Below are positions 1 through 3,000 of a DNA stretch of 64,000 nt, piece by piece (positions within the stretch are counted from its first letter, which is position 1; each line of letters opens with the position of its first letter). The stretch is from an uncultured Chlamydiales bacterium (GTDB lineage Bacteria > Chlamydiota > Chlamydiia > Chlamydiales > JAAKFR01). The position numbers were made by a program. The stretch is taken from contig OY969414.1 in assembly GCA_963699155.1 (NCBI GenBank), positions 2,027,757 through 2,091,756 of the forward strand, in the 5' to 3' direction.

Positions 1-3000
1 CAGCAAAGGGAGGGATATCGATTGGGAAGTCCCCACCACAAATCTCGACGAAGATGCCAATGTCATCTACGCTGAGATGGAAAATGGAACGATCATAAAG
101 GCCGAAGAGATTGAAACGCCAGACAGCATCGTTCCTCAGTATGAATTTGTCCTTCCTAGCGCCGTCAAAATTGGGGAAAAATTTACGATTGGCATTGGGA
201 TAAATCCTGAAGTGGATGGGAATTCCGACACCCTGGGAAATGAGTGTCAGCTCACCATCCAAAGAAGGCGTCCCTTCAATCTCTATATCGACCCAAAGGG
301 CAAAGGAAACTATGAAGAGCCCGAGGTCTTTACGATGGATATTCGAGGCAACCGCCTCAACACCATCCGTATCCTGACTCCCTCGTTTGTCTCGAAAAAC
401 AAAAGGTTCGATATCACCGTTAGATTCGAAGATGAGTATGGCAACCTGACCAATTTCGCCCCAGAAGATACGTTGATCGATCTCTCTTACGAACACTTGC
501 GGGAAAACTTGAACTGGAAGCTCTTTGTTCCCGAAACTGGATTTGTCACCCTTCCCAATCTCTATTTCAACGAAGCGGGGATCTATCGCATTCAGCTCCG
601 TAATTTAAAGACGAAAGAGACCTTCACCTCGGCTCCCATCAAATGTTTTCAGGAGAATGACCGCAACCTTTTCTGGGGACTTCTCCATGGGGAATCTGAT
701 CGAGTCGATTCCACAGAGAGCATCGAAAACTGTTTGCGCCATTTCCGAGACGAAAAATCTCTCAATTTCTATGGGACCTCCTACTTTGAAAACAGTGATG
801 AGACTCCCAACGAAGTTTGGAAGCAGGCTGTACAAAATGCTGCCGACTTCAACGAAGATGATCGCTTCATCACTTTCTTGGGCTTTCAGTTTCAGGGCGA
901 AGCAGGAAAAGAAGGGGTCCGCCAAATTCTCTATACAAAAGATAACAAACCCCTGCTGCGTCAGAAAGATACGAAGAACTCTTCATTATCGAAAATCTAT
1001 AAATCCTCCTCACCAAAAGAGATGATCTCCATTCCTACTTTTACAATGGGGAAGGGCTTCCATTTCAATTTCAAAGAGTTCACCCCCGAATTTGAACGGG
1101 TGGTAGAGATCTATAATGCCTGGGGAAGCTCTGAAGCGTTGAAGTGCGAGCGTTCAATCACTGGGAAAGTCGGCTCATCAGCGGAAGGGTCCATCGTGGA
1201 AGCGCTCAAAAAAAATTGCCGCTTTGGCTTTGTTGCGGGGGGCCTCGACGATCGTGGCACCTATAATGGCTTTTACGAAAGTGACCAGACGCAATATTCT
1301 CCGGGCCATACTGCTATCATCTGTGAGAAATATACCCGGGATTCGCTTCTAGAAGGACTCTACAGAAGGAGTTGTTATGCCACAACGGGAGCCCGCATCA
1401 TCGTCGGTTTCTACATCGCCGGTCAGCGAATGGGCAGTGAACTCTCTACCTCATTAAAGCCAGGACTCGCCGTCAATCGCCACATTTCGGGATATGTCGC
1501 TGGGACAGACAAGCTGAAATCGATCGAGCTGATCCGTAATGGGGAGGTCATCCACACCTTCCATCCGACCCAATATTTTTACGATTATTATTACGATGAC
1601 CAAGAGAGCTTCGATAAAGTCGGTTTGGTTGCAGAGGGCAAGGATCCCTTTATTTTTTACTACCTCCGCATCAAACAGCAGGATGGACAGATGGCCTGGA
1701 GCTCTCCTATCTGGGTCGATTTTAGCTCCCAACCGCCACCACCCAAAGTGGGAAAAAAATGATCAGGAGTCGCTCTCTGATGGCGCTGTTCAAGGTAGGT
1801 ATCACGTGAACCAACACCTCTTCGTGATGATTTTGCTAGCGACGGGGCTCATGGTTCTGGTCATCTTCTGCCTTTGCATCGGCCTGATCATTACTGGAAA
1901 ATCTCGTTTGCGCAAACGGTGCGGCTGGAATCCTCAAAAGAAAAAAGATCAAGATTCAGATAGCTGCACCCTTTGTGGCAGCAAAAAAAGGTGTGAAGAT
2001 GACGAGCATCCTCCAAAATGAGATTGAGTCACCTTTTCTAAGAGCTATTGGAGAGAAAGTAGCCTCGCAAACACGGCTGACAGCTGAAGAAGGAGTCCAA
2101 CTCTTACGCACGGGCGATCCGGGCGAAATCGAAGCCATCAGAAAGTTGGCTGATTTTGCTAGAAAAAGAGTGGCTGGAGAGGTCGTTCACTTTGCCTCGA
2201 CCCTCTATATCCACCCCACAAATCTCTGCGAACTCAACTGCCAATTCTGCTCTTTTTATGCAAAGCCGGGCTGGGAAAAGGCCTGGTTCCTCACTCCAGA
2301 GCAAATTGAAGAGAAGATCAAAAGTCATTTGCACGAAGGGCTCACCGAAATCCATATCGTCGGTGGGTTGTGGAGGGAGTGCAATCTCGACTATTATGAG
2401 GAGCTCTTTCAGCGCATCAAAAAGCTCGATCCACGCCTCCATATCAAAGCACTCACCCCTGTGGAATACCACTTCCTTGCCGAAATGCATGGCATTTCAG
2501 TCGAAGAGGTCTTGCGTAAGATGATCAATTGGGGTCTCGGCTCACTCCCGGGCGGTGGGGCAGAGATCTTAGTCGAAGAGATCCGAAAAAAAATTGCGCC
2601 AGGCAAGATCTCTTCCGATACCTTTTTGGAGATCCACGCGCTGGCTCACACTCTTGGGCTCCATTCCAATATCACGATGCTCTTTGGCCATATCGAAACC
2701 GACGAACATATTATCCACCACCTCATGCGTGTGCGTGATCTACAAGATAGGACCCATGGCTTCAGAGCCTTTATTCCTCTCAAATTTGGTCAGGAAAATA
2801 ACGCTCTGGGCAAACGAAAGAAGCTCTTAAAGGAAAAAAATATCCCTCTCCTCTATGCAGTCTCTCGTTTGATGATGGATAATATCCCTCACCTCAAAGT
2901 GCTCTGGAACTATGTTGGAGTCAGCGTTGCTTTGGAAATCTTACGCTGGGGAGGAAATGACCTCTCCTCGACAAATACCGAAGAGCGCGTCATCGCCATG

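What a model noticed while it worked through the whole genome (the two positions that open the first line are those of the whole stretch)
1806..2021. Uncalled NqrM-like gene heads the menaquinone operon and tracks Na+-NQR across chlamydiae
A 71-codon ORF missed by the gene caller, overlapping mqnE, encodes a one-helix membrane protein with conserved CG and CxxC motifs like the Na+-NQR maturation factor NqrM. In chlamydiae it lies not in an nqr operon but at the head of the menaquinone genes, and it occurs only in genomes that have NQR.
Evidence so far: Homologues in 54 of 100 chlamydial genomes. All 54 have nqrA (44 by Pfam NQRA_N, call 123; the other 10 by protein search, call 126); 9 of 10 tested genomes without the ORF and without the Pfam hit also lack nqrA by protein search. 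In 9 of 10 fetched loci it lies directly before mqnE or menG. Alignment: TM helix, G-x-LITGK, CG, CxxC. ESM Atlas: the nearest cluster with a family is NqrM (score 0.83, 178 shared features, family on 46% of members, 10 of 10 best family hits agree; call 134).
(Added by a program. Inside this text positions count along the whole contig: contig position 2,027,757 is position 1 of the stretch shown here. "Call 12" and the like, gene names such as g00115 and contig names such as C1 are that model's own, and its searches are not shown. The text may have been shortened before it was handed on; [...] marks where a part breaks off. The agent that wrote the report below was given it as the finding of a first reader that could run no searches.)

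Follow-up and report, generated by a model that had tools for sequence, protein, structure and literature searches.

The report
Chlamydial helper for sodium-pump assembly
This tiny, overlooked membrane protein is most likely the chlamydial version of the helper that builds the sodium-pumping NADH dehydrogenase, and it decays or vanishes in chlamydiae that have lost that enzyme.

Summary
The ORF at 1806-2021 is a real, uncalled gene: one helix plus a cysteine tail. It is a diverged homologue of NqrM. Profile comparison with annotated NqrMs gives 96.6-97.4%, and an NqrM-only profile ranks it first in its own genome. Pfam NqrM still misses it. Of 150 chlamydial genomes, 88 of 89 with nqrD carry an intact copy and the 89th has a positional candidate. 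None of 61 without nqrD has an intact copy; four keep remnants lacking the post-helix cysteine. In 36 further genomes, all 26 with nqrD hit, and the 10 without had decayed, absent or unassessable copies. It does not follow futalosine genes, cydA or feoB (24, 77, 78). Correction: it does not head the menaquinone genes; it follows the DUF3604 gene and stays there when those genes move away. Function is inferred, not shown. The scan noted Bacteroidota NqrM-like proteins before on other DNA (47), but no chlamydial note came up.

The parts
1806..2021 (+). NqrM-like gene, 71 aa: helix at residues 3-30, then G31-K32, C39-G40, C54-x-x-C57 and a fourth tail cysteine C63
1792..1799 (+). Shine-Dalgarno-like AAGGTAGG, 6 nt before the GTG
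   Evidence: read from the sequence; function inferred
2..1762 (+). DUF3604 gene (5' end lies before the window; CT425 counterpart); the most constant neighbour of the ORF
   Evidence: PF12228 E 1e-10; synteny; PMC11925237 Table 1 names CT_425 as DUF3604
1999..3099 (+). mqnE-like radical SAM gene, overlapping the ORF by 23 nt
   Evidence: TIGR03700 347.6 bits, below its cut-off of 434.55; called start at 1999; name rests on context
3103..3870 (+). mqnA-type gene of the futalosine route
   Evidence: PF02621 E 7.6e-55
3848..4546 (+). menG/ubiE methyltransferase
   Evidence: TIGR01934 over cut-off

Best explanation
[quoted passage not shown] Shown here: a single N-terminal helix, a short cysteine tail, homology to annotated NqrM, and retention only with NQR. 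Inferred: the helix anchors it in the inner membrane; the post-helix cysteine and the CxxC (or CC) group hold iron or an iron-sulfur unit and hand it to NqrD/NqrE, which carry the intramembrane [2Fe-2S] cluster. That step is borrowed from what is proposed for Vibrio NqrM (PMC6209661, PMC12174285, passages read). The chlamydial nqr genes are scattered, and this gene ended up behind the DUF3604 gene, often co-transcribed with menaquinone genes by position.
For: Homology: hhalign of chlamydial alignments against 16 annotated or Pfam-type NqrMs gives 96.6%, E 6e-10 and 97.4%, E 1e-11, with C39 on the cysteine of the NqrM GSCGG motif. The chlamydial profile A1 scores four proteobacterial NqrMs at 22-32 bits; 0 of 250 tail shuffles of each reach that, and 30 helix-plus-Cys decoys reach at most 4.4. 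A profile of proteobacterial NqrMs ranks this ORF first in six frames of its own genome, E 0.04, next 1.3. One homologue finds a single hit at E<=10 among 72,556 plasmids, an annotated nqrM, E 0.2. Distribution: intact in 88 of 89 nqrD-positive genomes, 83 of them with four or more tail cysteines; intact in 0 of 61 nqrD-negative genomes. Remnants without the post-helix cysteine in G105, G110, G093, G094, G155, G185 and a frameshifted copy in G179. Same-genus contrasts: G083 against G105, and G055/G184 against G110/G185. NQR state changes 12 times on a 67-row DUF3604 tree, at least 4 forced by strong branches.
Against: No biochemical or genetic test. The query has no PF04400 hit; 1 of 30 members hits it, below cut-off. 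It is not beside nqr or apbE genes. G156 lacks nqrD and nqrB yet keeps the helix, the first cysteine and two more, though it holds a 27-residue nqrF relic that points to recent loss. G110 keeps four tail cysteines and G105 five, so they may not be dead. G182 has nqrD but a one-base frameshift in an A run after the first cysteine, real or a sequencing error. The G119 candidate is not recognised by the profile. Short helix-plus-Cys proteins can resemble each other by composition. Kin are not independent, and the tree is one short marker with 29 of 64 inner branches open.
Confidence: 0.85

Rival explanations
1. An accessory factor of menaquinone synthesis, for example a metal or Fe-S donor or membrane anchor for the radical SAM enzyme MqnE or for MenG.
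For: It lies directly before mqnE or menG in 28 of 30 first loci and overlaps mqnE here.
Against: 44 of 89 nqrD-positive genomes have no PF02621 hit yet keep the ORF. All 7 genomes with PF02621 and without nqrD lack an intact ORF; in G065 and G146 DUF3604 runs straight into mqnE. DUF3604 runs straight into menG in G108, G109 and G162. In 11 loci the ORF has no menaquinone gene behind it.
Confidence: 0.04
2. An NqrM homologue that serves NQR in another way: a stable small subunit, an assembly scaffold for NqrD/E, or a metal- or redox-sensing regulator rather than an iron donor.
For: Cysteine spacing differs between lineages (CG...C...CxxC, CG...CxxC...C, C...CC...C) and 5 of 88 intact copies have only three tail cysteines. 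Iron delivery is only 'predicted' even for Vibrio NqrM (PMC6209661).
Against: The post-helix cysteine is kept in all 88 intact copies and is the residue most often lost after NQR loss, which fits a ligand role; nothing here shows stable binding.
Confidence: 0.08
3. A FeoB-associated cysteine-rich membrane protein for ferrous iron uptake, as a UniRef name on some Chlamydia copies suggests.
For: Names given by the source.
Against: feoB was found in 2 of 30 genomes and not in this one; three Chlamydia copies gave no such Pfam hit at E<=1.
Confidence: 0.02
4. An inclusion-membrane or secreted protein, or a chance frame.
For: One Chlamydia copy has a weak hit to an inclusion membrane protein family, E 0.0014.
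Against: Only 1 of 18 rows hits; the model has a single helix; purifying selection and decay with NQR loss do not fit.
Confidence: 0.01

Closest known systems
NqrM (DUF539, Pfam PF04400) of Proteobacteria
   Same: About 55-90 residues, one N-terminal helix ending in a GxxxxGK-like stretch, a cysteine just after the helix, usually four tail cysteines; the Ruegeria type has the same CG...CxxC layout. Occurs with Na+-NQR.
   Different: Below the Pfam cut-off; GSCGG is mostly reduced to xCG; 20-24% identity of the query to four NqrMs; not encoded after nqrF/apbE as in the annotated records but after the DUF3604 gene.
Unannotated Bacteroidota NqrM-like proteins (earlier scan notes e1-5305286, e1-3565966; top Atlas clusters)
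   Same: Small helix-plus-Cys proteins missed by Pfam in an NQR-bearing phylum; the nearest Atlas clusters (0.88-0.89) are Bacteroidota hypothetical proteins.
   Different: I held no Bacteroidota sequence of this kind, so the relation is untested here.
FeoB-associated Cys-rich membrane protein (a source's name for some Chlamydia copies)
   Same: Small, one helix, cysteine-rich tail.
   Different: feoB in only 2 of 30 genomes tested; no family hit.

Membership tests
NqrM (PF04400) | Scores over the Pfam cut-off | tested here: not met
   No hit for the query; best member E 0.0026, below cut-off; the one over-cut-off hit in 151 genomes spans two stops at a gene junction.
NqrM (PF04400) | Detectable homology to annotated NqrM | tested here: met
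NqrM (PF04400) | Small protein with one N-terminal membrane helix | tested here: met
   71 aa; AlphaFold2 helix 3-30, pLDDT 88-98 there, tail 50-61. Membrane location is inferred.
NqrM (PF04400) | Four conserved cysteines, the first just after the helix (that the first is the essential one is recalled from Kostyrko 2016, not read) | tested here: met
   Query C39, C54, C57, C63; 83 of 88 intact copies have four or more, 5 have three; C39 aligns with the GSCGG cysteine. Positions of the others vary.
NqrM (PF04400) | Encoded after nqrF/apbE in the nqr operon | tested here: not met
   nqrA at 391,094, nqrBCDE at 874,547-878,341, apbE at 1,666,753, nqrF at 2,338,154, ORF at 2,029,562 of G000.
NqrM (PF04400) | Occurs only with Na+-NQR | tested here: met
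   Intact in 88 of 89 nqrD-positive and 0 of 61 nqrD-negative genomes; G156 is a partial exception.
NqrM (PF04400) | Required for making active NQR | not testable with these tools
   Needs an assay.
FeoB-associated Cys-rich membrane protein | Occurs with feoB | tested here: not met
   feoB in 2 of 30 genomes, none in G000.
Menaquinone (futalosine) pathway accessory | Occurs with MqnA/MqnD/MqnE | tested here: not met

The most novel reading that the evidence does not exclude
NqrM is not a proteobacterial extra but an obligatory seventh nqr gene in every phylum with Na+-NQR, hidden by divergence. In Chlamydia trachomatis a 71-residue hypothetical protein between CT425 and CT426 would then be indispensable for the NADH dehydrogenase its respiration relies on, and the missing part for making chlamydial NQR in a foreign host.
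Probability: 0.45. Interest if true: 0.7.

Novelty: new variant of a known kind. Interest (0 to 1): 0.52.

Why it matters
Na+-NQR is described as critical to C. trachomatis respiration and as a drug target (PMC12682751, passages read) and was inferred for the last common chlamydial ancestor (PMC9816063, passage read). My searches found no paper naming a chlamydial NqrM, but Kostyrko 2016, Agarwal 2020 and Liang 2018 were not held. The finding assigns a function to a phylum-wide hypothetical protein, names the gene to add when rebuilding chlamydial NQR in a laboratory host, and the natural decay series points to the post-helix cysteine as the key residue. It extends a known system; it is not a new kind of machine.

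Tried and rejected
Word-index search with the query found nothing. Pfam and NCBIfam name neither the query nor the family. The PF04400 hit over cut-off in G010 is a chance match with two stops; two more of the seven hits that I opened lie inside other genes. A genome-collection scan with P0084 gave one 20-residue match of no use. The 160-codon extension from ATG 1539 was rejected: homologues start at the 1806 position. The promoter and terminator scan gave chance-level counts and no plus-strand promoter before 1806; this is weak evidence. No RNA holder was listed, which says nothing on expression. Complex prediction with NqrD and NqrE was not available, so no statement on binding is made. A fold search was not run because the model is one helix with pTM 0.42. 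nqrA is a poor single marker: both searches missed it in G083, which has nqrD and nqrF. cydA does not explain the pattern: it was found in 12 of 15 NQR-negative genomes tested. Rows left out: G005 (not scored); L168 from the NqrD alignment (stop in the match); P0015 from A2; the tree used 67 loci, not all genomes. Supplements of papers were not consulted.

Full report
The gene. Window 1806-2021 (+) reads as 71 residues from a GTG, with AAGGTAGG six bases upstream. It starts 43 nt after the stop of a DUF3604 gene (1762) and overlaps an mqnE-like gene by 23 nt; mqnA and menG follow. The ORF, from any of four starts, is not in the 15-billion protein collection, whereas mqnE, mqnA, menG, maf and the HEAT gene of the same genome are, so it was probably not called. 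Among 14 copies from the same family pN is below pS in 91 of 91 pairs, medians 0.35 and 0.79. AlphaFold2 gives one helix (3-30) and a low-confidence tail. The same protein is on record as hypothetical in C. trachomatis (AAX50697.1), C. pneumoniae (AAF38106.1), Protochlamydia (CAF23783.1) and Waddlia (ADI38393.1).

The family. The single protein hit 60 of 150 chlamydial genomes. An alignment of 30 (A1) has G31, C39, G40, C54 and C57 invariant and hit 77 of 151 at E<=0.001. It found 340 cluster representatives in the 1.84-billion library. Chlamydia-type copies differ: helix, GRPLSKGC, then CC and usually one more cysteine.

Homology to NqrM. Pfam PF04400 does not hit the query and hits 1 of 30 members below cut-off. 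I fetched annotated nqrM genes from Providencia, Ruegeria and Enterobacter records and an unannotated Aeromonas copy after apbE, and 120 relatives of the Ruegeria protein. hhalign gives 96.6% (E 6e-10) for A1 and 97.4% (E 1e-11) for the 150-row A2 against 16 of these; C39 falls on the GSCGG cysteine, and C54/C57 on the CxxC of the Ruegeria type. A1 scores the four NqrMs at 21.9-32.2 bits; 0 of 250 shuffles of each tail (first 19 residues kept) reach the real score, and 30 helix-plus-Cys decoys from this genome reach 4.4 at most. In reverse, the NqrM-only profile ranks this ORF first in the six frames of its genome (E 0.04), and the G145 copy finds one hit among 72,556 plasmids, an annotated nqrM (E 0.2). 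The Atlas points the same way at lead level for the query and for the C. trachomatis copy (0.83 and 0.82). Each test is modest; they agree, but they share sequences and are not independent.

Distribution against NQR. In the same sample nqrD (TIGR01939) was over cut-off in 89 of 150 genomes. A1 hit 76 of these. The other 13 all have a helix-plus-Cys ORF directly after DUF3604. I read all 89: 88 are recognised by A2 and keep a cysteine close behind the helix, with three (5), four (71), five (10) or six (2) tail cysteines; the G119 candidate rests on position only. Of the 61 without nqrD, A1 hit only G110. The DUF3604 anchor was found in all 61, and the DNA behind it was read (three end at a contig edge within 310 nt). 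No intact copy appeared. Four remnants did: G110 has the CG stretch deleted but keeps four other cysteines; G105 has an eroded helix and no CG but keeps five cysteines; G093 and G094 keep a helix and no cysteine. nqrB and nqrF were also not found in G105, G110, G141, G040 and G146. A displaced and very divergent copy in these genomes could have been missed.

A second set. In family f5 (53 genomes, 36 not in the first sample) A1 hit 46 and nqrD 42. All 26 new nqrD-positive genomes hit; I read two: G172 is cut by a contig end and G182 has a one-base frameshift in an A run. Of the 10 new nqrD-negative genomes, G155 and G185 have helix-only copies without tail cysteines, G179 has a copy broken by two frame changes, G161, G162 and G174 have nothing before menG, and G163, G164 and G173 could not be assessed. 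G156 is the partial exception: helix, first cysteine and two more are kept, the last cysteine of CxxC is lost, and a 27-residue nqrF relic at the usual nqrF place suggests a recent loss. On a quick tree of 67 DUF3604 fragments the NQR label changes 12 times, at least 4 on strong branches, so several separate events are involved, though their number is uncertain.

What it does not follow. PF02621 (MqnA/MqnD) was in 52 of 150 genomes: 44 nqrD-positive genomes lack it and keep the ORF, and the 7 that have it without nqrD lack an intact ORF. In G065 and G146 DUF3604 runs into mqnE, and in G108, G109 and G162 into menG. cydA is kept in 12 of 15 NQR-negative genomes tested. feoB was in 2 of 30, against the name some sources give.

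Position. The ORF precedes mqnE in 17 and menG in 11 of the first 30 loci, and DUF3604 lay within the fetched flank in 22. In 11 further loci it follows DUF3604, often overlapping its stop, with no menaquinone gene behind. PMC11925237 (Table 1 passage read) lists CT_425 as gene 1 of 4 of a polycistron; that the ORF lies inside this unit, and is not counted in it, is my inference. The nqr genes of this genome lie in three places and apbE in a fourth, in line with the split operon noted in PMC4014512 (passages read).

Mechanism. Shown: anatomy, homology, retention with NQR. Taken from papers: NqrM seems required for inserting the intramembrane [2Fe-2S] cluster (PMC12174285, passages) and was predicted to deliver iron to NqrD/E (PMC6209661, passages). 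Recalled, not read: that the first cysteine is the essential one in Vibrio harveyi NqrM. Inferred: the chlamydial protein does the same job, with C39 and the distal pair as ligands (0.85). A scaffold, subunit or regulator role for NQR takes most of the rest. No binding prediction could be obtained.

What is known. Searches for NqrM or DUF539 (25 papers), NqrM with Chlamydia (2 papers, in both of which NqrM occurs only in a reference title), and three narrower ones showed no chlamydial NqrM. Kostyrko 2016, Agarwal 2020 and Liang 2018 were not held and may mention it. Two earlier scan notes describe Bacteroidota NqrM-like proteins; none came up for this sequence or for look-alike stretches.

Verdict. 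A real gene and a diverged, relocated NqrM homologue. It works like NqrM by inference; I do not file it in PF04400, since the cut-off and the operon position were tested and not met. New variant of a known kind; interest 0.52.

Noticed in passing
window:2-1762 and loci L038-L135: The DUF3604 gene was found in all 61 NQR-negative genomes and beside most NQR-positive copies, so it looks close to universal in the phylum; it has a weak CehA/McbA metallohydrolase hit.
   Followed up: partly
L157:1504-1584 (G156): A 27-residue relic of the nqrF C-terminus at the usual nqrF position, in a genome without nqrB and nqrD hits.
   Followed up: yes
L156 (G182): One-base frameshift in an A run inside the ORF of an nqrD-positive single-contig genome; may be a sequencing error.
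   Followed up: partly
G147:C1:835098-839864: Two nqrD matches about 4 kb apart in the same-genus genome; duplication or assembly repeat.
   Followed up: no
G083: Has nqrD, nqrF and an intact ORF but no nqrA by two searches; 60 contigs, 97% complete.
   Followed up: partly
L044 (G141): Both the ORF and mqnE are gone between DUF3604 and mqnA, replaced by about 400 nt of AT-rich DNA; no nqr or cydA hits.
   Followed up: partly
L078 (G067): A short ferredoxin-like ORF (CxxxxCxxC, label by eye) follows DUF3604 in this NQR-negative genome.
   Followed up: no
P0100, P0108, P0114, P0129, P0131, P0139, P0148: Seven library representatives have lost the CG or most cysteines; they may come from further NQR-less relatives, but no genomes were at hand.
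   Followed up: no
window:5042-9446: maf, a HEAT-repeat gene and a CT351-family beta-barrel gene form a tight cluster; maf or the HEAT gene moves up behind DUF3604 where the ORF and menaquinone genes are gone.
   Followed up: partly
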